DNA of 32,667 nt. Origin: an uncultured Spirochaetales bacterium (GTDB lineage Bacteria; UBP6; UBA1177). Where the stretch lies: positions 1 to 32,667 of the forward strand of contig CACZFE010000028.1 in the NCBI GenBank assembly GCA_902780365.1. Direction: 5' to 3'. The translations under genes were made by a program, and so were the position numbers. The notes under the pieces were generated by a model that was not told the DNA's origin, searched no databases, and worked only from the letters and a program-made list of their open reading frames with translations. Position 1 is the stretch's first letter, and each line of letters starts with the position of its first letter. Below, piece after piece: positions 10,154 to 32,667 of this stretch.

Positions 10154-10574
10154 AAGTATCTGCGGATATCCGCAGGAAGCGACAGTCGAAGTGACTTCGC
10201 AGACCGGTGCGAAAAAAATCTTTTCTGTAGGAATCGCCGAAACCGCCCGTGAGCACGAACAAGGGCTCATGTACTGCAAAAAAATGGAAAAAAATCAAGG
10301 ACTTTTCTTCATTTTCGACACCGAAAAACCCCACTTTTTCTGGATGAAAAACACATTAATAGAACTTGCAGTGATATTTGTTGACCGCGATTTCAATGTA
10401 ATAGCCGTGAGAAAAGGAGTTCCTCTCAGCAAAACGACCCTTCCCAGCGTGAAACCTTCGCAATTCGTCCTTGAAGTGAACTGGGAAGCGGGAAAATCGA
10501 TCCTTCCCGGCGACAAAATCAAGTTGAAAATGAAGTGCCCCCTCTCTATGACCTCATCCCCAGCCCTTCTCTGA
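10086..10574 (+). CDS. DUF192 family protein with signal peptide
   Basis: TTG start, 162 aa, with the DUF192-type core FFWMKNTLIELAVIFVDRDFNVIAV. It overlaps the thiL 3' end by 68 nt. The last ~10 codons lie inside repeat A. Confidence 0.65.
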   Translation: MKLLAKTALSTLILLNFFLISAESICGYPQEATVEVTSQTGAKKIFSVGIAETAREHEQGLMYCKKMEKNQGLFFIFDTEKPHFFWMKNTLIELAVIFVDRDFNVIAVRKGVPLSKTTLPSVKPSQFVLEVNWEAGKSILPGDKIKLKMKCPLSMTSSPALL

Positions 10575-10625
10575 CCTCACCTCTAACCCCTCTCCAGTGT
10601 GGCGAGGGGAACCTGCGAAGGGAGA
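10545..10625. repeat. Mosaic GC-rich hairpin repeat, copy A
   Basis: Positions 10575-10611 (CCTCACCTCTAACCCCTCTCCAGTGTGGCGAGGGGAA) match the reverse complement of 28474-28510 at 35/37. Internal hairpin is CCCCTC-N11-GAGGGG. The copy lies between the convergent DUF192 and ugd genes. Confidence 0.85.
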
Positions 10626-11884: not shown

Positions 11885-12017
11885 AAAACCTCACCCTTTT
11901 TATCTCCCTCTCAGTCGCTTTGCGACAGCTCCCCCAAAGTGGGAGCCAAGCTTGCCTCTCACTCAGGGAGAGGTGGCAGCCAAAGGCTGACGGAGAGGGC
12001 AAAGAGGTCAAACCGCC
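11885..12017. repeat. Mosaic GC-rich hairpin repeats, copy B (in the putative ugd 5' leader)
   Basis: Positions 11953-11981 are identical (29/29) to the reverse complement of 29852-29880. The modules CTCAG-GTCGC-TTT-GCGAC-AGCTCCCC and GGCAGCC-AAA-GGCTG..GGAGAGGGC are colinear with copy E. Confidence 0.85.
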
Positions 12018-12283: not shown

Positions 12284-13189
12284 TTAAAAAATCCCTTTTC
12301 CAGATATTTTTCCTAGGACCTTTATCGCCTCGTCATAAGGAACTTTTTTGAACAATAATTTCTCTGTTGTAGCGATATAATCGGCTTTATACGGCTCTTT
12401 TTCTATAATTTCCGCAAGAAGCCTGTTGATTTCCACACCATCCTGTGCAGACAGGCAGATACTACGCTGTTTTCGTTCTTCTCTGACACGATTTACGAGC
12501 TTTTTCAAAGACTCGTCCGGCTTAACAACCTCAAGCAATTTATAAATATCGTATATGTGTCTGGAATGCTGTTCGCATTTACCGTCAAGATAGTAGTCAC
12601 ACAAAGCAAAAACTTTGTCGACAAACGTCCTTTCCGGCTTTTGGACTTTTATCGGGAACGGTCGAATATCGCTCGTATCCATAAAATCCAGCGCATTCTC
12701 TTTGCTCAGATAATCAAAAATATAATTGCCAACATTTCGCGTTTCGGTGGGATATATGCCTGTAAAAACAGCGGTTTCCACAATCAGTTTGCGGTTTACA
12801 GCGGAAAAAGCAAAAACCGACGGATAACCGATCACATAACGGTTAAAATCCCTGCGGCTGCGTATCTCGTCAAAATTCTCAAGATTCAGTCCGGAAACGT
12901 TTACAGCCTCAACAATACCTTCTTTCAGTTTTCTCCTCCGCCCTTCGGAAGGTTTCTCATTTTCTTCAAATATCGACAGATCTATGTCTTCCGAAAAACG
13001 GTCTATCAAACGGTAGCATTTTGACAACGATGTTCCGCCTTTAAAAATAATGTCAGGTACCAGTGAAGCTATGCTTCTAAGCAGCAGAGTAACATAGTAA
13101 TCCTTTTCTATAATCGCGGAGTCTATGCCGTATTCCGCAGAAACTCTGAGAAGAATATCCTCAAAAATATCACGATTTTCATGCAACAC
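12284..13189 (-). CDS. AbiEii/AbiGii-family nucleotidyltransferase toxin (type IV TA / abortive infection)
   Basis: 301 aa with the DUF1814-type motif FKGGTSLSKCYRLIDRFSEDIDLS. It is paired with an upstream AbiEi-like gene. Confidence 0.8.
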   Translation of the reverse strand: MLHENRDIFEDILLRVSAEYGIDSAIIEKDYYVTLLLRSIASLVPDIIFKGGTSLSKCYRLIDRFSEDIDLSIFEENEKPSEGRRRKLKEGIVEAVNVSGLNLENFDEIRSRRDFNRYVIGYPSVFAFSAVNRKLIVETAVFTGIYPTETRNVGNYIFDYLSKENALDFMDTSDIRPFPIKVQKPERTFVDKVFALCDYYLDGKCEQHSRHIYDIYKLLEVVKPDESLKKLVNRVREERKQRSICLSAQDGVEINRLLAEIIEKEPYKADYIATTEKLLFKKVPYDEAIKVLGKISGKGIF

Positions 13190-13796
13190 TGTATATCACC
13201 TCGCTCACAATAAGGTTTCGCATAGCCTTGTCCGGGAAAAACCGGCTGTATTCCGTAATCATGTTCCGGGTAATCCCCTTTTCTTTTATGAACCGGCAGA
13301 CCGTTTTTTTTCTTTCGTCATCAAAAAACTCTGCCGATGTGAAGTTCATCAGTTCCAGAAGTTGCATAACATCGGAATTTTCTTTTGTGATTTTCGTTCT
13401 GGAACGCCTCAGGATCACTTTCTGGGAATTGACAGAAATCTCCCTCAATTTTGTCTTCTCATTGTTGGTATAAATTTCAATGCTGTTAGGCATCTGAGTC
13501 GAGAGATTCATCAGGTTGAGCAGCGTATTTCCCGAATAATATCCAATAGTATCATTCCCGTCAGATATATATTTTTTCAGAATGACTTTTCTCGGATCAA
13601 GAAGAGTTTTCCCTAAAAAAGTCGTCTTCGGAATATAACAGACACCTTTGTCATATCTGACAATCTGCCCGTTTTTGCAAAGACGGCTCAATTCCTTGAA
13701 TATCCATGGTCTGGAATAATCCTCGAACTGGATATCACTCGTAAAAATCGGCTCGTTATAACCATATTTTTTCAACAAAAACTCATATAAACCCAT
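13179..13796 (-). CDS. AbiEi-family antitoxin / transcriptional regulator
   Basis: ATG at 13796 lies 7 nt after GGAGG. The N-terminal wHTH-like segment is ...IFKELSRLCKNGQIVRYDKGVCYIP. It overlaps the toxin gene by 11 nt. Confidence 0.75.
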   Translation of the reverse strand: MGLYEFLLKKYGYNEPIFTSDIQFEDYSRPWIFKELSRLCKNGQIVRYDKGVCYIPKTTFLGKTLLDPRKVILKKYISDGNDTIGYYSGNTLLNLMNLSTQMPNSIEIYTNNEKTKLREISVNSQKVILRRSRTKITKENSDVMQLLELMNFTSAEFFDDERKKTVCRFIKEKGITRNMITEYSRFFPDKAMRNLIVSEVIYSVA

Positions 13797-13893
13797 GGTG
13801 CGACCTCCATTTTCCACATTTTATATCATATCATACCTTGTAAGTCAATAAAAATATAATTTGCGGAGATTTAGGTGAAAAACGCATCCGTAG

Positions 13894-13915
13894 GGACGTA
13901 ACCTGATACGTCTCC
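13894..13915. repeat. GAGACG-N10-CGTC hairpin module upstream of abiEi
   Basis: GGACGTAACCTGATACGTCTCC. Over the central 20 nt its reverse complement differs by one base from 31463-31482. AAAAACGCATC lies adjacent at both sites. Confidence 0.7.
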
Positions 13916-15822: not shown

Positions 15823-16839
15823 TTAGTTTTGAGCCTTTATCTCTTTACCAGAAAATGTCCCGTAAGGTTTTCCTGACACATCTCCAGTTTTATAATAATC
15901 TGCCAACATCTTCAAAACAATATCAATATCTTTTTCATCTTCAATGAGAAGATTGCCATTATCGACCTTCAGGTTATCTCCATATTTTTTACAAACATTT
16001 TTCATTTTGCTTATAGCCTTATCATCAATATTTCGATAATTGCCTATTCTGGCGATACGAACAAGCTTTTTATGCAATGACGGGGTTGTTTCTATTTGTT
16101 CTGCTATCTTTTCTAATCCTTTTATCTTATTGGTTTGTTTTAATTGCTCAACAACTTTTTTAGCTTCTTCCTTATACTCTTCTTGTAACCCAACAATTTG
16201 TTCAAAACACCCCTTTTTGATAACATAAAAAATTTCGTCATAATAGATGCAGTCTATTTGTTTATCAAGATTTACAGTTTCACCTTTTAGCAATTCCAAT
16301 TTTTGATTTGTTGTATCAAAGAATGTACGAATTATTCTTAACCAACTCTTCCCTTCTCGCTCATCAACAGCAACTTTACCGGATTGTATTTTTCTAAATG
16401 TATAAATCCAATCCTTGGCTGTTAAATCGTTAAAACCGACGCAATAAGCCCACAATTCATCATTGTTTTGAAGTATTGCTTCAATACTTTGCATTTTATC
16501 CGGGCTTTTTTGCAGTTGATTTGTGACGACATCGGCAAATGAGAAGACTTTATTTTTCATTGAATATGTAAACAAATGCTCTGTGTCATCAGAAATGACA
16601 TCATAATCTATCATTTCAAAGTTCTTTTTTATCGTTATATTTAATTGCTCTTGAGATAAATCATATAGATACTGCCTGATTTCATCATTGATATCTACTT
16701 GATAAACCTTGAATAGATACTTGTCCATTACCTTGCTTGATTTTTTAATGTTTTCTTTAAGCATTCTGGTAATGAAAAACAACTTAAGATCAACCACTTC
16801 AGTAGATGTAATTTTGTCCAAAATTTCTTGTAATGTCAT
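15823..16839 (-). CDS. soluble protein, KwaB (DUF4868)-like by size and context; family not verifiable here
   Basis: 338 aa with no TM segment and no catalytic motif recognised, plus a charged helical stretch LQEEYKEEAKKVVEQLKQTNKIKGLEKIAEQIE. The start overlaps the stop of the upstream 4-TM gene (ATGA). The DNA is very AT-rich. Confidence 0.5.
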   Translation of the reverse strand: MTLQEILDKITSTEVVDLKLFFITRMLKENIKKSSKVMDKYLFKVYQVDINDEIRQYLYDLSQEQLNITIKKNFEMIDYDVISDDTEHLFTYSMKNKVFSFADVVTNQLQKSPDKMQSIEAILQNNDELWAYCVGFNDLTAKDWIYTFRKIQSGKVAVDEREGKSWLRIIRTFFDTTNQKLELLKGETVNLDKQIDCIYYDEIFYVIKKGCFEQIVGLQEEYKEEAKKVVEQLKQTNKIKGLEKIAEQIETTPSLHKKLVRIARIGNYRNIDDKAISKMKNVCKKYGDNLKVDNGNLLIEDEKDIDIVLKMLADYYKTGDVSGKPYGTFSGKEIKAQN

Positions 16840-17471
16840 GTTGTTTCCCTATGTCTATCTGCAAAAAACAATTTAAAACCAATAGAGTATATTTTTACAA
16901 TACTTCCTTCTTCTATGTTTGCATTCCTCATAATAATCATTCCGCTTTTTCTTTTCCCGTTTTGCTCCTCATATTCAATTTCAAATATGGAATATTTAAA
17001 GTTTATAACCGGATTTACAAGTAACAGGCTGGAATTGATGTATATGCGGTATATAATAAATAACAAAAACAACAGAGCAAATACTTCATATACAGTATTG
17101 AAGCCTTGAAATATAAACGGGATAATGTAAGTTGCAATGTATCCTATGGAGTCGCCGTTTCTATTGGAAATTTTTATGATAGTAACATTGTCTCCATTCT
17201 TTACATTCTTTTGTAAATTAAAAAACAATAATTTACAACCAACCAAAGACAGCATGGATATGATTATGAGCAATACTGAAAGTCCAAACTTAATAAAAAA
17301 AGTCCCAACCGTTGCTTGAGAAATTCCACACCAACATAAAAATTGAGCATTGTTGCAAATCTGCTTGAATGCAATTAGTATGAACAGTGGTAAGTAGGAA
17401 GTAAGAAAAAGCACCAGTTTGGCTATTCCATACAGGTTATTATGCTTCGTTTGTTTTTCACTCGTTCCCAT
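16836..17471 (-). CDS. four-TM membrane protein, KwaA-like by architecture
   Basis: 211 aa with four hydrophobic helices: LVLFLTSYLPLFILIAF, FGLSVLLIIISMLSLVG, IGYIATYIIPFIF and VFALLFLLFIIYRIYI. A soluble tail of about 60 aa follows. Confidence 0.5.
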   Translation of the reverse strand: MGTSEKQTKHNNLYGIAKLVLFLTSYLPLFILIAFKQICNNAQFLCWCGISQATVGTFFIKFGLSVLLIIISMLSLVGCKLLFFNLQKNVKNGDNVTIIKISNRNGDSIGYIATYIIPFIFQGFNTVYEVFALLFLLFIIYRIYINSSLLLVNPVINFKYSIFEIEYEEQNGKRKSGMIIMRNANIEEGSIVKIYSIGFKLFFADRHRETT

Positions 17472-26833: not shown

Positions 26834-27690
26834 GAATCCTTACTTTTGACATAGAAGAGTGGTTTCATCTTTTGGATAACCCATCAACCAAAACAGAAAA
26901 TGAATGGGAAAAATACGAGGTAAGAATTTATCAAAATGTTGACAAAATTCTTGAAATCATTGAAAAAACCGACACTAAAGCAACGTTTTTCATCATAGGC
27001 TGGATTGCAAAAAAATATCCGGACATCGTAAAGCGTATTTCCGAAAAATATGAAATCGGATCACATACCTGCTACCATCAGTTGGTTTGGCAACAGAATC
27101 AAAAAGAATTCAAAGAAGATTTGTCAGCTTCAATCAAACTTTTGCAAGATATTTCCGGCAAACCGGTAAAATATTTCAGGGCTCCCGGATTTTCAATCAG
27201 AACAAGCGAATTGTGGGCATTTGAAGTGATAAAAGAATGCGGAATAGAAATAGACTGCTCGATCTTCCCTGCACATCATGCCCACGGAGGGATCCCACTT
27301 TTCCCAAAACCATATCCTTCAATAATTCAATACAAAGGAATCAAACTGAAAGAATTTCCATGTGTATTTAAAAATATCGGAAAACACCACATTGTTTTCT
27401 CTGGTGGAGGATATTTCAGAATTATTCCTTATTGGCTGCTCAAAAAATGGACGTCAAAATGTAACGAATATCTTCTTTCCTATATTCACCCAAGAGATCT
27501 GGATGCAACCCAACCAATGATTAAGGATTTGCCTTTAAAAAGGAAATTCCGCTCCTATATCGGCATAAAAAATGCAGCGAACAAATTGGAAAAATGGCTC
27601 ACAGACTTTGATTTCACAGATATTGAAACGGCCGACAAATCTTTTGACTGGAACAAAGCTCAGATCGTTAATTTTGATCAGATAAAATAA
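26830..27690 (+). CDS. polysaccharide deacetylase family protein (DUF3473-type)
   Basis: 286 aa with an N-terminal ILTFDIEEWFH, plus ATFFIIGW and SHTCYH metal-site-like motifs. ATGA overlap with the preceding gene. Confidence 0.7.
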   Translation: MRILTFDIEEWFHLLDNPSTKTENEWEKYEVRIYQNVDKILEIIEKTDTKATFFIIGWIAKKYPDIVKRISEKYEIGSHTCYHQLVWQQNQKEFKEDLSASIKLLQDISGKPVKYFRAPGFSIRTSELWAFEVIKECGIEIDCSIFPAHHAHGGIPLFPKPYPSIIQYKGIKLKEFPCVFKNIGKHHIVFSGGGYFRIIPYWLLKKWTSKCNEYLLSYIHPRDLDATQPMIKDLPLKRKFRSYIGIKNAANKLEKWLTDFDFTDIETADKSFDWNKAQIVNFDQIK

Positions 27691-28562
27691 GCATTTATTG
27701 AAAAAGATTTTTGGGCTGGAAGTCGCTTCAAATTCCAATACTTCTTCACCCCTCTCGCCGTATACCAGCACATGAAATATGCTGCTTCAAACAGGTTCAA
27801 ACCGACATGGCGGTAAGTTTTCCATGTTCTGAATGCAGCTTTCATCTTGTTTCTCGTCATCGAGTTCGTAGACAAACGGTACGAGAGCAGAGGTTCATCC
27901 AACCCGATGATTTTACACCCTGATTTAGCCATTTTTAGCCACATCGCAAAATCACTGCTTATATCATCACCGATGACATAGAACTGCTCGTAAAGCTCCT
28001 TTTTCACAAGAACAGACGAGTTGGAAATAATATCCTGCTTCAAAAGCTCGCGGTATGAAATGGTGCATGGAACATGAAGCTGCCAGTTTATGTGATTTCC
28101 GTCGTTGTCGATGAATGCGGAACCGGTGAAAACAAGGTCGGCATTCTCTTTTTCGGCGAGAGCGAACTGCTTTTCAAGTTTGCAACTGTCCCAGATATCG
28201 TCGCTGTCAAGCACCGCGATCCACTCGCCTTTCGCAGCTTCAAGAGCTTTTTTGCGGGTGAGGGAGACACCGAGATTGCTCTCGTTACTGATAACACGGA
28301 TGCGCGGATCGGATTTCGCGAAAGAATCAGCAATTTCCAAGGTGTTGTCTTTCGAACAATCGTTCACCACAATCAGTTCCCAATCGGTATATGTCTGCGC
28401 CAGTACGGAACGGATCGCCGCTGCGATTTTAGACCCCTCGCCTTTTGGAGACGTTTCATGAAACGTCTCTACATTCCCCTCGCCACACTGGAGAGGGGTC
28501 AGGGGTGAGGTTCCCGCATTGTATGCCGCCATGATTATGGTGATCAATGGTCTAGTCATCAT
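27678..28562 (-). CDS. glycosyltransferase family 2 carrying an in-frame repeat-element insertion near the N-terminus
   Basis: Shows GT-A features: IIMAAYNA, LIVVNDCSKDN and AVLDSDDIW (DxD). TSPLTPLQCGEGNVETFHETSPKGEG is intercalated between AAYNAG and SKIAAAIRSVLAQTY. Confidence 0.8.
   Translation of the reverse strand: MMTRPLITIIMAAYNAGTSPLTPLQCGEGNVETFHETSPKGEGSKIAAAIRSVLAQTYTDWELIVVNDCSKDNTLEIADSFAKSDPRIRVISNESNLGVSLTRKKALEAAKGEWIAVLDSDDIWDSCKLEKQFALAEKENADLVFTGSAFIDNDGNHINWQLHVPCTISYRELLKQDIISNSSVLVKKELYEQFYVIGDDISSDFAMWLKMAKSGCKIIGLDEPLLSYRLSTNSMTRNKMKAAFRTWKTYRHVGLNLFEAAYFMCWYTARGVKKYWNLKRLPAQKSFSINAYFI
28434..28511. repeat. Mosaic hairpin repeat, copy C, inside the GT2 CDS
   Basis: Three parts. 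28474-28510 is the reverse complement of the copy A core (35/37). 28448-28469 is the perfect 22-nt palindrome GAGACGTTTCATGAAACGTCTC. 28434-28446 (CCCCTCGCCTTTT) is identical to 29780-29792. Confidence 0.85.
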
Positions 28563-28568
28563 TACTTC

Positions 28569-29525
28569 TCAACACTTTCCATCCGAATACCCTTGATAAG
28601 CTGATTTCAGAATCTTCTCAAATCGGATTCTGATTCCCTGCTTATAATATTCCTTCCTGACTGCACTGCAAATCGGAATCCCTTCATAGGATTCAGGAAC
28701 ATCATCAATCAGTTTATATATATCCTGAAGATGGTTTTCTATCAGCGGAACATTTCTTTTTACAGCATCCCGCAAACCCGGGCAATCCATCATAATAAGT
28801 TTTGGACCGCTGAGAATATGACCATCTACTTCATAAGCCGTTACTGAAGCCCCCAGAACATCTCTCTCCAACTTATCTTTTTGCATATGCATTACTATTT
28901 GTTCATCCGATGTTTTATTGGAAAAAGCGTTCCCGTTATCATACACAGGAGCTATTTTGTAAATTTCCCCATTGAAAACCAACCCCCAGTTGCCGTTATT
29001 CCGATCATTGTTATCGATAAGAATATCAACAACCACCATGTCCCAAAAATGTTCCTTCAAGCCTTCGACATTTTTGAGATGACGATTCTCTTCCAAATGA
29101 AACAAAAGCTCCGGCAGATTTACTCTGTCACCTGATTTTGATTCAGCAAAACCCTCAAGTTCTTCTGTCCGTTCTTCACTATACGCATTTTTTATTGTGC
29201 GTATTTCAGACAATCCTCCGCGAATTACGCAAAAATCCTTGCAGGCAACAACTACTTTGCCTTTCTTTATGCCAAGCAGCGTCTTGTGGACATCGTAGCC
29301 CAGAATCTCGTAGACATGACTCCCGAGATATTCCGACAGCGGTGCGGTCGTATAGGAAATATTACGAGCATTATTCCTCATTCCTCGAGTAGTCTTAGGA
29401 TACTTTATAAACCAAAACTCCCCGTCAATCAGTATACCGTCTTTGTTTCCGCCATTACCACCGTATATTCCGTCACGGTTGCTGAGAGGAAAAAGTTTTT
29501 CGTCATCAAAATTGTATATCTGCAT
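28569..29525 (-). CDS. HipA-family (HipA_C-like) Ser/Thr kinase, putative toxin
   Basis: I chose the ATG at 29525; the track ORF begins at an upstream GTG. 318 aa with the G-rich loop YGGNGGNKDG, the catalytic-loop-like ILIDNNDRNNGNWGLVF, and KIAPVYDNGNAF matching the HipA AP-x-YD motif. Confidence 0.6.
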   Translation of the reverse strand: MQIYNFDDEKLFPLSNRDGIYGGNGGNKDGILIDGEFWFIKYPKTTRGMRNNARNISYTTAPLSEYLGSHVYEILGYDVHKTLLGIKKGKVVVACKDFCVIRGGLSEIRTIKNAYSEERTEELEGFAESKSGDRVNLPELLFHLEENRHLKNVEGLKEHFWDMVVVDILIDNNDRNNGNWGLVFNGEIYKIAPVYDNGNAFSNKTSDEQIVMHMQKDKLERDVLGASVTAYEVDGHILSGPKLIMMDCPGLRDAVKRNVPLIENHLQDIYKLIDDVPESYEGIPICSAVRKEYYKQGIRIRFEKILKSAYQGYSDGKC

Positions 29526-29527
29526 TT

Positions 29528-29761
29528 TTACCACTCCGGGTATCTGGAGACAATAATATCCCACTGTTTTTGATTCATATGCCCACTGGCTACAGATGCT
29601 TTGCACAACATATCTACGGCTCTTGCCATACCGAAATACTGCGGATCGCCTTCCCGATCATATCTTTCGCAGTCTTCGATTGTATTTCTAAGCACTTCGC
29701 CATGAATAGGGAATTCGATTTTTACATCATCATTGATCCAACGGTATTGCACTGATCTCAT
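29528..29761 (-). CDS. 77-aa protein of unknown family, candidate cognate antitoxin/partner of the kinase
   Basis: AAGGAG lies 6 nt upstream of the ATG at 29761. Its stop TAA (29528-29530) is 2 nt from the kinase ATG. No HTH is recognisable. Confidence 0.5.
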   Translation of the reverse strand: MRSVQYRWINDDVKIEFPIHGEVLRNTIEDCERYDREGDPQYFGMARAVDMLCKASVASGHMNQKQWDIIVSRYPEW

Positions 29762-29980
29762 TTACATCTCCTTTCTATTCCCCTCGCCTTTTGAAGACAT
29801 TTGACCCCTCAGACAACCTGCGGTTGCCGTATAGCCCTCTCCGGCAGCCCCGGCTGCCACCTCTCCCTGAGTGAGAGGCAGGGAAAGACTTGGCCCGCCC
29901 TTCTCAGCTCCTACTTCAGGGGAGCCTATAGAGGTGCCCGCATTGTATGCCGCCATAATTATAGTGATAGTCGGTGTCAT
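29762..29980 (-). pseudogene. Orphan GT2 5' stub fused to repeat copy D
   Basis: Encodes MTPTITIIMAAYNAGTS, close to the N-terminus of the intact GT2 (ITIIMAAYNAGTS), followed only by repeat-derived sequence. It ends with TAA directly before the 77-aa gene ATG. Its start overlaps the upstream gene stop (ATGA). Confidence 0.6.
29778..29935. repeat. Mosaic GC-rich hairpin repeats, copy D
   Basis: 29852-29880 is the reverse complement of 11953-11981 (29/29). 29803-29828 is the reverse complement of 31673-31698 (24/26, both mismatches in the hairpin loop). 29780-29792 is identical to 28434-28446. Confidence 0.85.
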
Positions 29981-31446
29981 TTTTCAACCACCTCCCAATG
30001 ACCGCCTTTGTCTGGACCGATACGGCGGATAAGATTTTCTTTTTGCATTTCGCTCAACATCTTTTTGACAGTCGTATGACCTAATCCCAGTTCTTCTTCC
30101 AATTTTACTATTGTGATAAAACTATCGTTTTTAATGGCGGCAAGTATTTGGCGGATTTTTTCTGGCCACTTTTCTGGCCACTTTTCTGGCCATTTTTCTA
30201 TTTTCTGGTCACTTTCTGTACCCTTTTCATTTCCCTGTATATTTCCTTCCTCTCCGGCATTCAATTCAAAAGGTGCGGCATCTATCTTGTTGAACGGAAT
30301 TGTGACTACGATAAAATTCTTTTTGACAGCGATTGTATCGCGTCCGTATGCCTTGACGATCGTTGGAACACCGCGCCCTGAACGCTCGCTAAGCCTGAGC
30401 TGAAGGAAAATCGAGGCAAGTGCTTCGTTTACGGGAATGCTGACTCCATTATAAAAACCTTCTAGATCCTGTTCGATTCCAAGCCCGCCGTGGGAGACGA
30501 TTTCTATTCTGTCGGTGAACACGCTTATCATCGGGGCATTCATGGCAAGCCATTTGTTGTGAATGAAAGCATTCAAAAGTGCTTCGTGGAAAGCCTCGTA
30601 ATCAAAAAGAGGAACATCTTTGCGTTCCGAAATACGCCCGCGTTCGTCAGCCTGAATGATGTTTATAGCGTCGCCGTATTCCAGTATTTTATCCATGGAA
30701 TACAAAATGCAGGAATTTCCGTATTCTTTCACGGAAAAAAGAGTGTCAGCCTTGGTTTTTCCGCTGAAAACAGAAACGCGGATCGGAATATCATTTGAAT
30801 CGGCAAGCAGGAGTGCCATTATGTTGTAGCGGCCGTCTGCTGTCAGCAGTTTGAGCGTTTTCTTAAAGGTGTCACGTCTGAGTCTGATCCCTTTTGCACC
30901 GTAATACAAAAAGAGTTTCTCGAAAGTCAGATCCTGCGCATAATCAGGTGAGGCAGTGTTCACGATAGTAGGAATTCCGTTTGAAAGCACGTTCAGCAGA
31001 CGGATTTCCCACTCCGGAAATTTTGAAATCTTTTCCTTGCTTGAACCTATCCGGATAAACGTCTGGTTCATGAACTTTGTCGGAACGGATTTCGCGGCAG
31101 GAACAGTCAGCAAAACAATTCTTTTGCCGGAAATTTCAGCTTCATCGACTTCAAACGCAAGACTCGGCTTTAAGTGGCGTGCAAGGTAATGTTTGTAAGG
31201 TTCGTGCTCGATATCCTTGTCGAAATTAACCGTTGTTCCGGTAATTTCATGCGTTTTGTCACTCACACCCCAGACAATATAGCCGTATTCCCGCCCGCTC
31301 AAAGCCGCGCCGTTGGAAATCGCGGAAATATATTCACCGATTTCGTCCTTTGAAAACCAGTTCTCTTTGAAATCGAGCCATTCGTATTCGTGCGGAAGCA
31401 AAATCAGGTTCGTGACAGTGTCAATTATGTTGAGGGCGGGTGTCAT
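29977..31446 (-). CDS. AlbA_2 (Schlafen-like) / HATPase_c_4-like / C-terminal wHTH protein, of the class often annotated as RecG-like transcriptional regulator
   Basis: 489 aa. N-terminal HEYEWLDFKENW...AISNGAALSGREYGYIVWGV. Middle FHEALLNAFIHNKWLAMNAPMISVFTDRIEIVSHGGL. C-terminal ITIVKLEEELGLGHTTVKKMLSEMQKENLIRRIG. AAGGAG RBS is present. Confidence 0.8.
   Translation of the reverse strand: MTPALNIIDTVTNLILLPHEYEWLDFKENWFSKDEIGEYISAISNGAALSGREYGYIVWGVSDKTHEITGTTVNFDKDIEHEPYKHYLARHLKPSLAFEVDEAEISGKRIVLLTVPAAKSVPTKFMNQTFIRIGSSKEKISKFPEWEIRLLNVLSNGIPTIVNTASPDYAQDLTFEKLFLYYGAKGIRLRRDTFKKTLKLLTADGRYNIMALLLADSNDIPIRVSVFSGKTKADTLFSVKEYGNSCILYSMDKILEYGDAINIIQADERGRISERKDVPLFDYEAFHEALLNAFIHNKWLAMNAPMISVFTDRIEIVSHGGLGIEQDLEGFYNGVSIPVNEALASIFLQLRLSERSGRGVPTIVKAYGRDTIAVKKNFIVVTIPFNKIDAAPFELNAGEEGNIQGNEKGTESDQKIEKWPEKWPEKWPEKIRQILAAIKNDSFITIVKLEEELGLGHTTVKKMLSEMQKENLIRRIGPDKGGHWEVVEK
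30158..30193. repeat. 12-nt tandem repeat x3 (TTTTCTGGCCAC), coding (EKWP)3
   Basis: Units at 30158-30169, 30170-30181 and 30182-30193 (last base differs), followed by a degenerate copy. It lies in the linker before the wHTH. Confidence 0.9.
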
Positions 31447-31462
31447 TTATTTATCTCCTTCT

Positions 31463-31484
31463 GAGACGCATCAGGTTACGTCTC
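31463..31484. repeat. GAGACG-N10-CGTCTC hairpin module immediately upstream of the AlbA_2-gene RBS
   Basis: GAGACGCATCAGGTTACGTCTC. Related to 13894-13915 (reverse complement) and to the palindrome at 28448-28469. Confidence 0.7.
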
Positions 31485-31547
31485 TACAAAAAAACGCATC
31501 TCGCGCGTGAAACATATTGAAATTAGTGAAAAAGTCAACAAATACAA

Positions 31548-31702
31548 ACCCCTCCGTCACTGCGTGACACCTCCCAGACCCCTCAGCCGCTTTGCGGCAG
31601 CTCCCCTACCTCAGGGGAGCCTTGACGGGGAGGCAAGAATCGGTAGAAAGGCGCCCCTAAATTAGGGGAGCTGGCAACCAAAGGTTGTCTGAGGGGTCTC
31701 TT
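31548..31702. repeat. Mosaic GC-rich hairpin repeats, copy E
   Basis: Contains the hairpins GTCAC-TGC-GTGAC, GCCGC-TTT-GCGGC, GCTCCCCT-ACCTC-AGGGGAGC, GCGCCCCT-AAATT-AGGGGAGC and GGCAACC-AAA-GGTTGTC+TGAGGGGTC. Module order is colinear with copy B. Confidence 0.85.
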
Positions 31703-31733
31703 CTCGCATTTCCAAAAAAATTCAGTATAATGC
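31703..31733 (+). promoter_or_regulatory. 31-nt promoter-like block facing the capE/fnlA-like gene, with TATAAT at 31726-31731
   Basis: CTCGCATTTCCAAAAAAATTCAGTATAATGC. It matches the minus strand of 12018-12048 at 29/31 and lies 43 nt upstream of the ATG at 31774. Confidence 0.4.
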
Positions 31734-31773
31734 ACCGTTTTTGTTGATGTTCACTTTTTAAACGAGGTTGAAG

Positions 31774-32667
31774 ATGACTGAATTTAACGGCGCGACGCTG
31801 ATGATCACGGGCGGAACGGGCTCGTTCGGAAATACCGTTCTCAAACATTTCCTCACTTCCGATATCGCTCAGATCCGAATTTTCTCGCGTGACGAGAAGA
31901 AGCAGGACGATATGCGCCACGACTTGCAGGCGAAATATCCCGATTATGCTAAAAAAGTTAAATTTTATGTCGGCGATGTCCGTGATCCGCGTTCTCTGGC
32001 TGACGCGATGCCGGGTGTCGACTATATTTTCCACGCAGCCGCATTGAAACAGGTCCCCTCTTGCGAATTCTTCCCGATGCAGGCGGTAAAAACCAATGTT
32101 GAAGGGACCGACAACATGCTTCACGCTGCAATAAATGCGGGTGTAAAGAGAGTCGTCTGCCTCAGCACTGACAAAGCCGCTTATCCGATAAACGCGATGG
32201 GGATAAGCAAGGCGATGATGGAACACGTCATCTATGCGAACGCGAGAGTCGCTGCAGAGCGTGGCGGAACTGTTATCTGCTGCACCCGTTACGGCAACGT
32301 AATGTGCAGCCGCGGTTCGGTAATCCCGCTTTTCATCGACCAGATCCACGCCGGAAATCCGATAACGATAACAGACCCGAACATGACGCGTTTCCTGATG
32401 AACCTTGACGAGGCGGTAGAACTTGTCAGATTCGCTTTCGGGCACGCAAATCCGGGCGATCTCTTCATCCAGAAAGCAGACGCTTCGACGATCGGAGACC
32501 TGGCAAAGGCTGTGCAGAAACTTTTCGGCGACACCGGAACCAACATCATCGGCACAAGGCATGGCGAAAAACTTTACGAAACCCTTATGACAAGAGAGGA
32601 AAGGCTCCGTTCCGAAGATATGGGAAAATACTTCAGAGTCGCAGCCGACAACCGCGACCTCAACTAC
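31774..32667 (+). CDS. UDP-N-acetylglucosamine 4,6-dehydratase/5-epimerase (CapE/FnlA/WbjB family), 3'-truncated by the window edge
   Basis: Not in the ORF track because it has no stop in the window. GAGG RBS is present. My own translation gives MTEFNGATLMITGGTGSFGNTVLKHFL...IRIFSRDEKKQDDM...HAAALKQVPSCEFFP...CLSTDKAAYPINAMGISKAMME...TRYGNVMCSRGSVIPLFIDQI...TDPNMTRFLM...GTRHGEKLYETLMTREE...RDLNY. These are hallmark CapE/FnlA strings. Confidence 0.9.
   Translation, partial: MTEFNGATLMITGGTGSFGNTVLKHFLTSDIAQIRIFSRDEKKQDDMRHDLQAKYPDYAKKVKFYVGDVRDPRSLADAMPGVDYIFHAAALKQVPSCEFFPMQAVKTNVEGTDNMLHAAINAGVKRVVCLSTDKAAYPINAMGISKAMMEHVIYANARVAAERGGTVICCTRYGNVMCSRGSVIPLFIDQIHAGNPITITDPNMTRFLMNLDEAVELVRFAFGHANPGDLFIQKADASTIGDLAKAVQKLFGDTGTNIIGTRHGEKLYETLMTREERLRSEDMGKYFRVAADNRDLNY

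What the first reader, a model, noticed from the sequence alone, without database searches (positions are those of the whole stretch)
28569..29761. Divergent short HipA-family kinase coupled to a 77-aa non-HTH partner: possible non-canonical kinase TA/defence module
The 318-aa protein keeps HipA_C-like landmarks. These are a G-rich loop (YGGNGGNKDG), a catalytic loop (IDNNDRNNGNWG) and an AP-x-YD motif (IAPVYDNG). It lacks the usual long N-terminal HipA domains. The catalytic loop reads D-R-N-N-G-N rather than the D-x-H-x-K-N I recall for E. coli HipA. Its upstream partner stops 2 nt before the kinase ATG. That partner is a 77-aa acidic protein with no recognisable HipB-type helix-turn-helix, so the pairing differs from both HipBA and HipBST. 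The pair sits between a duplicated GT2 5' end and the intact GT2, so it looks like an inserted cargo.
Basis: partly seen in the sequence, partly recalled or inferred. Interest (0 to 1): 0.75.

Follow-up and report, generated by a model that had tools for sequence, protein, structure and literature searches.

The report
CtkA-like kinase with conserved small partner
A mobile two-gene cassette sits inside a capsule-synthesis locus and encodes a HipA-fold protein kinase of the Helicobacter CtkA type plus an undescribed 77-residue helical partner; it is most likely a new kind of kinase toxin-antitoxin or phage-defence pair, though no function has been tested.

Summary
Window 28569-29525 (-) encodes a 318-aa kinase. 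Window 29528-29761 (-) encodes a 77-aa protein whose stop lies 2 nt before the kinase ATG.

The kinase misses Pfam HipA_C's threshold but is a clear relative of H. pylori CtkA (phmmer E 5e-30; Foldseek TM 0.82/0.90). HipT and HipA are the next-best folds. The D-R-N-N-G-N catalytic loop is invariant across the family.

The partner has no Pfam, NCBIfam, PADLOC, PDB or fold match. It is predicted with confidence as an extended N-terminus plus a three-helix bundle. It is not a chance ORF:
- It lies directly upstream of the kinase in 67 of 80 genomes from several phyla.
- It co-diverges with the kinase (Mantel r 0.79).
- It is fused to the kinase in three genomes.
- It carries an N-terminal Cro/C1 HTH in about 12 genomes.

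Flanking genes are otherwise unrelated. A related strain has the same locus without the pair, which defines a 1.47-kb insertion at a REP-like element inside the GT2 gene.

Best reading: a self-contained, mobile CtkA-type kinase/partner module that works like a type II toxin-antitoxin or abortive-infection system. Toxicity, neutralisation and target are untested, and a few relatives lack the partner. This is a new variant of a known kind.

The parts
29528..29761 (-). Small partner gene: 77 aa, pI 5.2, with an extended N-terminus (residues 1-21) and a three-helix bundle (H22-36, H41-59, H64-73). Putative kinase-binding antitoxin or regulator.
   Evidence: ORF. Family alignment with invariant F17, E32, K54, W67. 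AF2 pLDDT 93. No Pfam, NCBIfam, PADLOC, PDB or fold match. Directly upstream of the kinase in 67 of 80 genomes.
28569..29525 (-). CtkA-family (HipA-fold) Ser/Thr kinase gene, 318 aa. Putative toxin or effector.
   Evidence: phmmer to CtkA 3akj, E 5e-30. Foldseek to CtkA, E 3e-18, TM 0.82/0.90, with HipT and HipA next at TM about 0.5. PADLOC PDC-M03A, E 9e-19. Pfam HipA_C sub-threshold.
29436..29465 (-). Gly-rich (ATP-binding) loop YGGNGGNKDG, residues 21-30.
   Evidence: Position. Invariant G22, G23, G26, K28. Aligned to CtkA GFGGANGNK.
28983..29018 (-). Catalytic loop IDNNDRNNGNWG, residues 170-181. D174 is the putative catalytic base and N179 a Mg ligand.
   Evidence: Position. Invariant N172, D174, R175, N176, N177, G178, W180, G181. 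Aligned to CtkA GNFDRHNGNWG.
28932..28955 (-). Mg-binding motif IAPVYDNG, residues 191-198 (D196).
   Evidence: Position. Invariant P193, D196, N197, G198. Aligned to CtkA IAPIFDCG.
28436..29904 (-). Segment of about 1.47 kb that is present in the window but absent from a related strain. It holds the rest of REP-A, the partner gene, the kinase gene, the second GT2 5' end and REP-B.
   Evidence: blastn of L096/L097 against the window. Homology (94-98%) stops at 29905 and resumes at 28435.
29762..29980 (-). Remnant ORF of 72 codons: the first copy of the GT2 5' end (17 codons, MTPTITIIMAAYNAGTS) read through REP-like element A (about 29770-29930). Its stop abuts the partner's ATG. Probably not a functional protein.
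   Evidence: The same N-terminus heads the intact GT2 allele P0178 in the related strain.
27678..28562 (-). Intact GT2 (TuaG-like) glycosyltransferase. Its start is 7 nt after the kinase stop. It carries the second 5' end copy (28507-28544) and an in-frame REP-derived insert of 28 codons (about 28436-28510).
   Evidence: Pfam Glycos_transf_2 E 4e-35, but the hit starts at residue 42, which is profile position 9. NCBIfam TuaG. Allele comparison.
29977..31446 (-). Upstream neighbour in the same transcription direction: Schlafen AlbA_2 + HATPase_c_4 + winged-HTH protein (489 aa). It is present in the related strain without the kinase pair, so it is not part of the module.
   Evidence: Pfam. PHROG 12156. 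L096 comparison.

Best explanation
The two genes form a self-contained, horizontally mobile module.

**Shown.**
- The 318-aa protein is a catalytically intact HipA-fold Ser/Thr kinase of the CtkA subfamily.
- The 77-aa protein belongs to an unannotated family that travels with this kinase subfamily and co-evolves with it.
- The pair was inserted at a REP-like element inside the 5' end of a capsule GT2 gene. The inserted segment carries a second GT2 5' end that keeps the GT2 reading frame intact.

**Inferred.**
- The module works like a type II toxin-antitoxin or abortive-infection system.
- The partner is translated first from a coupled message. It binds the kinase through its conserved face (W8/I9/F17 in the N-terminal arm; E32, D35, K54, Q66/W67, Y74 on the bundle) and keeps it inactive.
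- When the partner is lost or titrated, for example by phage infection, stress or loss of the element, the kinase phosphorylates an essential cellular protein and arrests growth. By analogy with HipA and HipT the target would be a translation factor such as an aminoacyl-tRNA synthetase.
- In relatives whose partner has an N-terminal Cro/C1 HTH, the same protein would also repress its own operon. The window's HTH-less version would rely on read-through from the upstream gene, or on the promoter-like site in the duplicated GT2 5' end.
For: **Kinase identity and intact active site.** CtkA by sequence, E 5e-30. CtkA by fold over the whole length, TM 0.82/0.90, with HipT and HipA toxins as the next hits. 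Gly-rich loop, K41, D174, N179 and D196 are invariant or nearly so. PADLOC candidate-defence kinase PDC-M03A, E 9e-19.

**Partner linkage.** The small-protein HMM hits an ORF directly upstream on the same strand in 67 of 80 GTDB species genomes, with gaps of -23 to +27 nt. These genomes span Lachnospiraceae, Bacilli, Erysipelotrichaceae, Treponema and Bacteroidales. The pairing is also seen in metagenome contigs with unrelated flanks, on a Treponema bryantii plasmid and on 2 viral contigs.

**Co-divergence.** Pearson r 0.79, Mantel 0 of 999 permutations. The partner evolves faster: mean distance 0.70 against 0.56 for the kinase.

**Physical-interaction hint.** Partner and kinase form one polypeptide in L037, L079 and L088.

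**Antitoxin-like architecture.** About 12 of 80 partners have an N-terminal extension of 55-84 residues. Pfam HTH_26 scored 31-37 bits (cutoff 22) in all three that were tested.

**No conserved third gene.** 130 flanking ORFs hit 119 different Pfam families, and none occurs more than 5 times.

**Mobility.** Relatives at 66-75% identity sit in unrelated contexts. The empty site in L096/L097 shows the insertion.

**Context.** The same polysaccharide locus holds complete AbiE and Kiwa systems.

**Precedent.** HipA-family kinases with non-HipB partners are predicted TAs (PMC8262856). One of them, HipAD/DS-6, has been validated as a phage defence (PMC13092281).
Against: - No toxicity, neutralisation, binding or phage assay exists for any member.
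- Five relatives (L020, L024, L065, L089, L090) have no partner gene upstream, and their core kinase motifs look largely intact on a strict motif check. A sixth (L086) has a broken kinase gene. This is awkward for an obligate toxin.
- H. pylori CtkA, the only studied relative, is reported as a solitary ICE cargo gene and a T4SS-delivered, host-acting kinase (PMC5536186, PMC12443045).
- The natural fusions could equally mean that the small domain is a regulatory or targeting domain rather than an inhibitor.
- The window's partner has no DNA-binding domain, so autoregulation, which is usual for type II TAs, is not evident.
- The kinase falls below Pfam's HipA_C cutoff.
- I could not run a complex prediction.
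Confidence: 0.6

Rival explanations
1. A cellular signalling or regulatory kinase with a small adaptor, activator or substrate. The 77-aa protein targets or switches on the kinase, or is phosphorylated by it, and the pair is not toxic.
For: - Natural single-chain fusions of partner and kinase.
- Partner-less relatives with largely intact core motifs.
- Some neighbours are housekeeping or regulatory genes such as sigma factors and response regulators.
- CtkA is reported to autophosphorylate and is not described as toxic to its producer (PMC5536186).
Against: - A core signalling pathway would show a conserved neighbourhood or a vertical distribution. Here the pair is patchily spread across phyla in variable islands, on a plasmid and on ICE-like contexts.
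- The gene order, coupled small upstream gene, faster-evolving partner and HTH-fused partner variants fit antitoxins better than adaptors.
- The nearest structural relatives after CtkA are TA toxins.
Confidence: 0.22
2. A secreted, host- or competitor-directed effector kinase like H. pylori CtkA. The small protein would act as its secretion chaperone.
For: - Closest characterised homologue is CtkA.
- Some relatives sit next to T4SS coupling proteins and Fic genes on ICE-like elements.
Against: - The window kinase ends ...QGYSDGKC and lacks the basic KRRR C-terminal tail. PMC5536186 identifies that tail as the T4SS signal and as peculiar to the H. pylori proteins.
- No secretion system is present in the 32.7-kb window.
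- Most relatives have no T4SS neighbour.
- The HTH-fused partner variants are not chaperone-like.
Confidence: 0.07
3. The kinase pair is one part of a larger system together with the upstream Schlafen AlbA_2/ATPase/wHTH gene, or with the capsule genes. In that case it would act in capsule regulation or as a three-gene defence.
For: - Tight packing on one strand: Schlafen-like gene, GT2 remnant, partner, kinase, GT2, with overlapping or abutting stops and starts.
- The Schlafen-like protein has a weak PADLOC PDC-S50 hit.
Against: - The related strain L096 keeps the Schlafen-like gene and GT2 at 94-96% identity but has no kinase pair.
- None of the 80 other loci shows a recurrent Schlafen or GT2 neighbour.
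- L014 has the pair followed by a different glycosyltransferase.
Confidence: 0.04

Closest known systems
Helicobacter pylori CtkA (JHP0940; PDB 3akj/3akk/3akl)
   Same: - Same short HipA-like kinase fold over the whole length: TM 0.82/0.90, 27% identity, phmmer E 5e-30.
- Same Gly-rich loop near the N-terminus, same D-R-x-N-G-N-W-G catalytic loop and same AP-x-[YF]-D-x-G motif.
- Both are cargo of variable or mobile regions. In H. pylori the ctkA slot is interchangeable with AbiE-like and Fic modules (PMC12443045).
   Different: - The catalytic-loop His of CtkA is Asn here and throughout this subfamily.
- There is no basic C-terminal T4SS tail.
- CtkA is described as a solitary gene and a host-acting effector, whereas this subfamily is coupled to a conserved small partner.
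- A 68-aa ORF also abuts a Campylobacter fetus CtkA-type gene, but it is not detectably related to the partner family.
HipBST and hipJS modules (HipT/HipJ short kinases with HipS antitoxin)
   Same: - Short HipA-fold kinase lacking N-subdomain-1, with the Gly-rich loop near the N-terminus.
- Neutralised, or presumed to be, by a small non-DNA-binding protein encoded next to it.
- That small protein is fused to the kinase in other lineages, as HipS corresponds to the N-subdomain of HipA (PMC8262856).
- HipT is the best non-CtkA structural hit.
   Different: - The partner is an all-alpha three-helix bundle of 77 aa, not the roughly 100-aa HipS/N-subdomain-1 fold. It has no sequence or fold match to HipS.
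- There is no third HipB gene.
- Kinase-to-HipT similarity is only at fold level (TM about 0.53, 12% identity).
HipBA (E. coli HipA/HipB)
   Same: HipA-fold kinase downstream of a small co-transcribed partner. In about 12 of 80 relatives the partner has an Xre/Cro-type HTH like HipB.
   Different: - No roughly 100-aa N-terminal subdomain.
- The window's partner has no HTH.
- Pfam HipA_C is below threshold.
- The catalytic loop is D-R-N-N-G-N rather than the HipA-type loop.
PADLOC PDC-M03 / hipIN (HipA-like core kinase + HipS-HIRAN protein) and HipAD (DS-6)
   Same: - The kinase matches PDC-M03A profiles, E 9e-19.
- The concept is the same: a HipA-family kinase paired with a non-HipB partner in defence islands.
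- HipAD has been validated experimentally as a phage defence that depends on its kinase (PMC13092281).
   Different: - No HIRAN (PDC-M03B) or DUF3037/DUF1829 (HipAD) partner is present (PMC13245101 for the composition of PDC-M03).
- The partner here is upstream rather than downstream, much smaller, and unrelated.

Membership tests
HipA-fold kinase superfamily (Pfam HipA_C PF07804) | Scores above Pfam's gathering threshold for HipA_C | tested here: not met
   21.4 bits against a cutoff of 30.5, E 2e-4, covering only residues 154-215. Many homologues at about 50% identity do carry a precomputed PF07804 hit.
HipA-fold kinase superfamily (Pfam HipA_C PF07804) | Core motifs present: Gly-rich loop, ATP-binding Lys, catalytic Asp/Asn loop and Mg-binding D-x-G | tested here: met
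   G19-K28, K41, D174...N179 and D196-G198 are invariant or nearly so in 40 homologues. They align with the corresponding CtkA motifs.
HipA-fold kinase superfamily (Pfam HipA_C PF07804) | Three-dimensional fold similar to solved HipA/HipT structures | tested here: met
   AF2 model with pLDDT 86.6. Foldseek gives HipT(Lp) 8ezs at E 5e-6, and HipA 4pu5/3tpv/3dnt at E 1e-5 to 1e-4, TM about 0.5.
CtkA-type kinases (H. pylori JHP0940) | Full-length sequence and structural similarity to CtkA | tested here: met
   phmmer E 5e-30 over residues 19-208. Foldseek E 2.6e-18, TMq 0.82, TMt 0.90 over about 320 columns.
CtkA-type kinases (H. pylori JHP0940) | Basic, disordered C-terminal tail (KRRR) that serves as the T4SS signal, plus ICE/T4SS context (PMC5536186) | tested here: not met
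   The protein ends ...KSAYQGYSDGKC. There are no T4SS genes in the window. The paper itself says the tail is peculiar to the H. pylori proteins.
CtkA-type kinases (H. pylori JHP0940) | Protein kinase activity and autophosphorylation | not testable with these tools
   Only motif conservation can be shown.
HipBA type II TA | Kinase has the roughly 100-aa N-subdomain-1 | tested here: not met
   The Gly-rich loop begins at residue 19 of 318.
HipBA type II TA | Upstream partner is an Xre-type HTH protein (HipB) | tested here: not met
   No HTH family hit for the 77-aa protein at E<=1. The fold search finds no HTH protein. A subset of relatives do have an HTH_26 N-terminal domain.
HipBST | Tricistronic hipB-hipS-hipT, with HipS homologous to HipA N-subdomain-1 | tested here: not met
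   Only two genes are present. The partner is all-alpha and has no PDB sequence or fold match to HipS complexes.
PADLOC PDC-M03 (HipA + HIRAN) | Both the A (kinase) and B (HIRAN-domain) genes are present and adjacent | tested here: not met
   The A profile matches at E 9e-19. The partner gives no PADLOC hit, and no HIRAN gene is nearby. Composition of PDC-M03 is from PMC13245101.
Type II toxin-antitoxin module (generic) | Two small co-oriented genes with coupled or overlapping stop and start, conserved as a pair and horizontally mobile | tested here: met
   2-nt gap in the window. 67 of 80 loci have gaps of -23 to +27 nt. Co-divergence r 0.79. Flanks are unrelated. Empty site found.
Type II toxin-antitoxin module (generic) | Antitoxin carries a DNA-binding domain for autoregulation | tested here: not met
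   Absent in the window's 77-aa protein. Present as HTH_26 in about 12 of 80 relatives.
Type II toxin-antitoxin module (generic) | Toxin arrests growth and the cognate partner neutralises it by direct binding | not testable with these tools
   This needs expression and rescue assays or a complex structure. The natural fusions are only an indirect hint of interaction.

The most novel reading that the evidence does not exclude
The 77-aa three-helix protein founds a new antitoxin or sensor family for HipA-fold kinases. That would be an eleventh Hip-type module organisation, beyond the ten catalogued in 2021. The pair would be an abortive-infection defence that is common in gut and rumen anaerobes. 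By implication, H. pylori CtkA, long treated as a host-directed virulence kinase, would descend from a bacterial toxin lineage and be an orphaned or re-purposed toxin.
Probability: 0.4. Interest if true: 0.65.

Novelty: new variant of a known kind. Interest (0 to 1): 0.55.

Why it matters
HipA-type kinases are the model for persistence toxins, and one with a non-HipB partner was recently validated as a phage defence. Their partners turn out to be very diverse.

This module adds a partner family that has no annotation and no detectable structural relative. The family has about 350 representative clusters at 50% identity (profile search, E<=1e-3). It is tied to the CtkA branch, which the published Hip phylogeny did not cover.

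It gives a concrete, testable two-gene system for three questions:
- How does a 9-kDa helical protein control a kinase?
- What do CtkA-type kinases phosphorylate in bacteria?
- Is the reported virulence role of H. pylori CtkA secondary to a toxin ancestry?

The locus also shows toxin-antitoxin and defence cargo (AbiE, Kiwa, this pair) being shuffled into a capsule locus at REP-like elements. In one case the insertion lies inside a coding sequence and the reading frame is preserved.

Tried and rejected
1. **Complete PADLOC PDC-M03.** Rejected. Only the kinase profile matches, and there is no HIRAN partner (PMC13245101).
2. **Partner as HipB or HipS.** Rejected. It has no HTH hit and is all-alpha.
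3. **Any known fold or sequence relative of the partner.** PDB Foldseek best E was 0.45, a generic bS20-like three-helix match. BFVD best E was 0.65. A profile search of PDB sequences gave one spurious hit at E 0.04. Nothing usable.
4. **Small ORF upstream of the Campylobacter fetus CtkA-type gene as a remote partner homologue.** hmmsearch and hhalign were both insignificant.
5. **Three-gene system with the Schlafen-like gene.** Rejected by the empty site and by the neighbourhood survey.
6. **Phage-borne module.** Only 4 of 2.9 million viral contigs carry a relative, and PHROG hits are weak.
7. **Structured RNA in or around the cassette.** Rfam found nothing meaningful.
8. **Integron-cassette reading of the REP-like elements.** Considered from memory only. 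I saw no attC-like core sites by eye and had no attC model, so I did not pursue it.
9. **Literature.** No paper in the searchable library links CtkA-type kinases to an antitoxin or describes the small protein.
10. **Source organism.** Not identified. Exact-sequence look-ups returned no names, and the REP motifs occur only in this organism's contigs.
11. **Complex prediction.** Not possible.
Full report
**Observation.**
Two tightly packed minus-strand ORFs are present as described. A 77-aa ORF lies at 29528-29761. A 318-aa ORF runs from the ATG at 29525 to 28569. They are separated by 2 nt, with a GGAG 8-11 nt before the kinase ATG. A longer 345-aa reading from a GTG at 29606 is possible on paper, but homologues align from the ATG. 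The partner is mildly acidic, pI 5.2. The duplicated GT2 5' end is real: 28507-28544 and 29931-29968 share 38 nt at 92% identity.

**What the kinase is.**
- Pfam HipA_C matches only below threshold: 21.4 bits against 30.5, residues 154-215. NCBIfam gives nothing useful.
- A sequence search of the PDB finds Helicobacter pylori CtkA at E 5e-30 over residues 19-208.
- An AlphaFold2 model built on 40 homologues has pLDDT 86.6. It superposes on CtkA over its whole length: Foldseek E 2.6e-18, TM 0.82/0.90, 27% identity.
- The next hits are the toxins HipT (Legionella) and HipA (Shewanella, E. coli) at TM about 0.5, followed by PI4-kinases.
- PADLOC's candidate-defence kinase profile PDC-M03A matches at E 9e-19.
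- Across 40 homologues at 44-80% identity, the Gly-rich loop (G19, Y21, G22, G23, G26, K28), K41, the catalytic loop N172-D174-R175-N176-N177-G178-W180-G181 and P193-D196-N197-G198 are invariant.

So this is a catalytically intact, short HipA-fold kinase of the CtkA branch. CtkA has His where this family has Asn.

**What the partner is.**
- It has no hit in Pfam, NCBIfam, PADLOC or PHROGs.
- A first search found only 15 close clusters. However, the small ORFs upstream of distant kinase homologues share the same pattern.
- A profile search raised this to 54 clusters. An exhaustive profile search of 1.84 billion representatives found 350 at E<=1e-3 and 171 at E<=1e-10.
- Most are 70-82 aa. Among the listed hits with N-terminal extensions, the domain lies at the C-terminal end.
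- F17, E32, K54 and W67 are invariant. I9, D35, Y42, D50, Q66 and Y74 are nearly so.
- AlphaFold2 predicts, at pLDDT 93, an extended N-terminal arm (residues 1-21) and a three-helix bundle.
- Foldseek against the PDB and against viral models finds only generic three-helix matches with E >= 0.45. A profile search of PDB sequences finds nothing credible.
- Public annotation calls members 'hypothetical protein'.

**Is the pairing real?**
I scanned one genome per GTDB species with kinase motifs. That gave 283 relatives, of which 80 loci were fetched. They come from Lachnospiraceae, Oscillospiraceae, Bacilli, Erysipelotrichaceae, Treponema, Bacteroidales and others, nearly all gut or rumen organisms.

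An HMM of the partner gave the following (L027 and L095 resolved by inspection):

| Arrangement | Loci |
|---|---|
| Partner directly upstream, same strand, gap -23 to +27 nt | 67 |
| Partner and kinase in one reading frame (L037, L079, L088) | 3 |
| Partner downstream of the kinase (L051) | 1 |
| Partner 828 nt upstream (L028) | 1 |
| No partner despite at least 300 nt of upstream sequence (L020, L024, L065, L089, L090; L086 has a broken kinase gene) | 6 |
| Cut by a contig end | 2 |

Partner and kinase distances co-vary: Pearson 0.79, Mantel 0 of 999 permutations. The partner diverges faster, 0.70 against 0.56 mean distance.

About 12 loci have a partner with a 55-84-residue N-terminal extension. 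The three I tested are Cro/C1-type HTH domains, Pfam HTH_26 at 31-37 bits against a cutoff of 22.

The 130 nearest flanking ORFs hit 119 different Pfam families, and none occurs more than five times. The conserved unit is therefore the pair and nothing else.

The pair also occurs on Treponema bryantii plasmid pTB1, annotated as two hypothetical proteins. It occurs on 2 of only 4 matching viral contigs.

**How it got here.**
- Contigs from a closely related strain (L096, L097) match the window at 94-98% on both sides. They run from the Schlafen-like gene, through a 75-aa MqsA/YgiT-type zinc-ribbon ORF, straight into an intact GT2 gene.
- Homology to the window stops at 29905 and resumes at 28435. 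The window therefore carries an extra 1,469 nt.
- That segment holds the rest of REP-like element A, the partner, the kinase, a second GT2 5' end and REP-like element B.
- The intact GT2 of the related strain (P0178) starts with the N-terminus that in the window heads only the 72-codon remnant ORF.
- A third sample (L014) has the same left junction but diverges at window 28510, the start of REP-B, into a different glycosyltransferase.
- Related REP-like sequences also flank the UDP-glucose dehydrogenase, AbiE and Schlafen-like genes.

The pair was thus brought in by recombination at a REP-like element inside the GT2 5' end. The insert supplies a replacement 5' end for GT2.

**Context.**
The window is a polysaccharide-biosynthesis locus. 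It also holds a complete AbiEi/AbiEii system (12284-13817) and a complete Kiwa system (15823-17471, a low-GC patch). It therefore behaves like a defence island.

**Mechanism.**
- Shown: an intact CtkA-type kinase; a co-inherited, co-evolving small partner; translational coupling; mobility.
- Inferred: the partner binds and restrains the kinase, as in type II toxin-antitoxin systems, and release of the kinase arrests growth by phosphorylating an essential protein.

Arguments for this inference:
- The gene order, with the small gene first.
- The faster-evolving partner.
- The HTH-plus-binding-domain architecture of a subset of partners.
- The fold kinship with HipT and HipA.
- Precedents for HipA-family kinases with unrelated partners. 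Ten organisations are catalogued in PMC8262856. HipAD/DS-6 has been validated as a kinase-dependent phage defence in PMC13092281.
- The split-versus-fused state of the partner recalls HipS, which is a separate antitoxin in HipBST but a fused N-subdomain in HipA (PMC8262856).

Arguments against:
- No experiment exists on any member.
- Five relatives with largely intact core motifs lack the partner.
- H. pylori CtkA is reported as a solitary ICE cargo gene and a T4SS-dependent host-acting kinase (PMC5536186, PMC12443045). Its basic C-terminal secretion tail is absent here, and that tail is said to be peculiar to H. pylori.
- The fusions could equally mean a regulatory or targeting domain.

I put the TA/defence-like reading at 0.6. 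A non-toxic kinase with an adaptor or activator gets about 0.2, a secreted effector with a chaperone under 0.1, and a larger system with the neighbours about 0.04.

**Comparison and novelty.**
- The kinase is a new member of the known CtkA/HipA-fold kind.
- The module organisation is not among the published Hip organisations: an upstream, roughly 75-aa, all-alpha partner that sometimes carries an HTH and is sometimes fused.
- It fails the defining features of HipBA (no N-subdomain, no HipB), HipBST (no HipS, no third gene) and PDC-M03/hipIN (no HIRAN protein).
- I found no paper linking CtkA-type kinases to an antitoxin. The searchable library is incomplete, so prior description elsewhere cannot be excluded.
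- I class it as a new variant of a known kind, with moderate interest (0.55). It is a clean, testable system and it reframes CtkA. But HipA-like kinases with assorted partners are already an established theme.

Noticed in passing
window 12284-13189 (-) and 13179-13817 (-): A complete AbiE abortive-infection/TA pair is embedded in the polysaccharide locus: AbiEii at PADLOC E 1e-84 and AbiEi at E 3e-63. REP-like sequences flank it at about 11910-11981 and 13890-13914.
   Followed up: partly
window 15823-16839 (-) and 16836-17471 (-): A complete Kiwa defence system (KwaB E 4e-124, KwaA E 5e-73) lies in a low-GC patch (0.30-0.34 against 0.42 for the window), between an acyltransferase gene and an epimerase gene of the capsule locus.
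   Followed up: partly
window about 28436-28510, within GT2 27678-28562 (-): The GT2 gene carries an in-frame REP-derived insert of 28 codons between the first beta-strand (IIMAAYNAG) and the rest of the GT-A domain. The Pfam hit starts at residue 42, which is profile position 9. A related strain's allele (P0178) has a different 21-codon insert at the same point. Whether the enzyme tolerates this is unknown.
   Followed up: partly
window 10574-10611, 11910-11981, 13890-13914, 28420-28515, 29765-29940, 31455-31710: A family of GC-rich palindromic REP/MITE-like elements (motifs GGCTCCCCTGARGTAGG, CCCCTCGCCTTTTG, GACCCCTCAG) lies at the borders of gene cassettes. Among 99 fetched loci these motifs occur only in this organism's contigs. 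The elements seem to mark recombination breakpoints in the capsule locus.
   Followed up: partly
window 29987-29958 (-): A near-consensus sigma-70-like promoter (TTGAAA, 18 nt, TATAAT; 11 of 12 positions) lies inside the first copy of the duplicated GT2 5' end. It could drive the partner/kinase cassette. The second copy (28547-28518) matches 9 of 12. This is a pattern match only.
   Followed up: no
L096 1446-1673 and L097 211-438 (related strain, same site): In the strain that lacks the kinase pair, a 75-aa MqsA/YgiT-type zinc-ribbon ORF sits between the Schlafen-like gene and GT2. The window has no such gene. This junction is therefore a hot spot for small cargo.
   Followed up: partly
window 30158-30218, within the Schlafen-like gene 29977-31446 (-): A 12-nt tandem repeat (TTTTCTGGCCAC, three full copies plus a degenerate fourth) encodes EKWPEKWPEKWP in the linker before the C-terminal winged-HTH. 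The same repeat is present in the related strain.
   Followed up: no
L037 2695-4080; L079 186-1430; L088 1163-2407: Natural single-chain fusions of the partner domain (N-terminal) and the CtkA-like kinase, found in Bacteroidaceae-type MAGs. These are useful constructs for structure prediction of the interface.
   Followed up: partly
L099 (Campylobacter fetus plasmid pCfviMP1) 2655-4642; L006-L009: CtkA-type kinase genes are repeatedly followed by a Fic-family gene: on the C. fetus plasmid, and on ICE-like loci in Clostridia next to TraG-type coupling proteins. This echoes the ctkA/fic alternation reported for the H. pylori tfs3 ICE.
   Followed up: no
L027 and L095; also P0223: Some genomes carry two CtkA-like kinase genes within 3 kb of each other. 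One representative protein (P0223, 180 aa) joins a ParE-toxin domain to the partner domain. It may be a real fusion or a gene-call read-through of adjacent TA genes.
   Followed up: no
window 31774-32667 (+): A gene runs off the window end and encodes a CapE/FnlA-type UDP-sugar 4,6-dehydratase N-terminus (MITGGTGSFG...), identified by eye only. The Schlafen-like gene and kinase cassette would then lie between divergent capsule operons. The 301-aa minus-strand ORF at 31657-32562 is probably its shadow.
   Followed up: no
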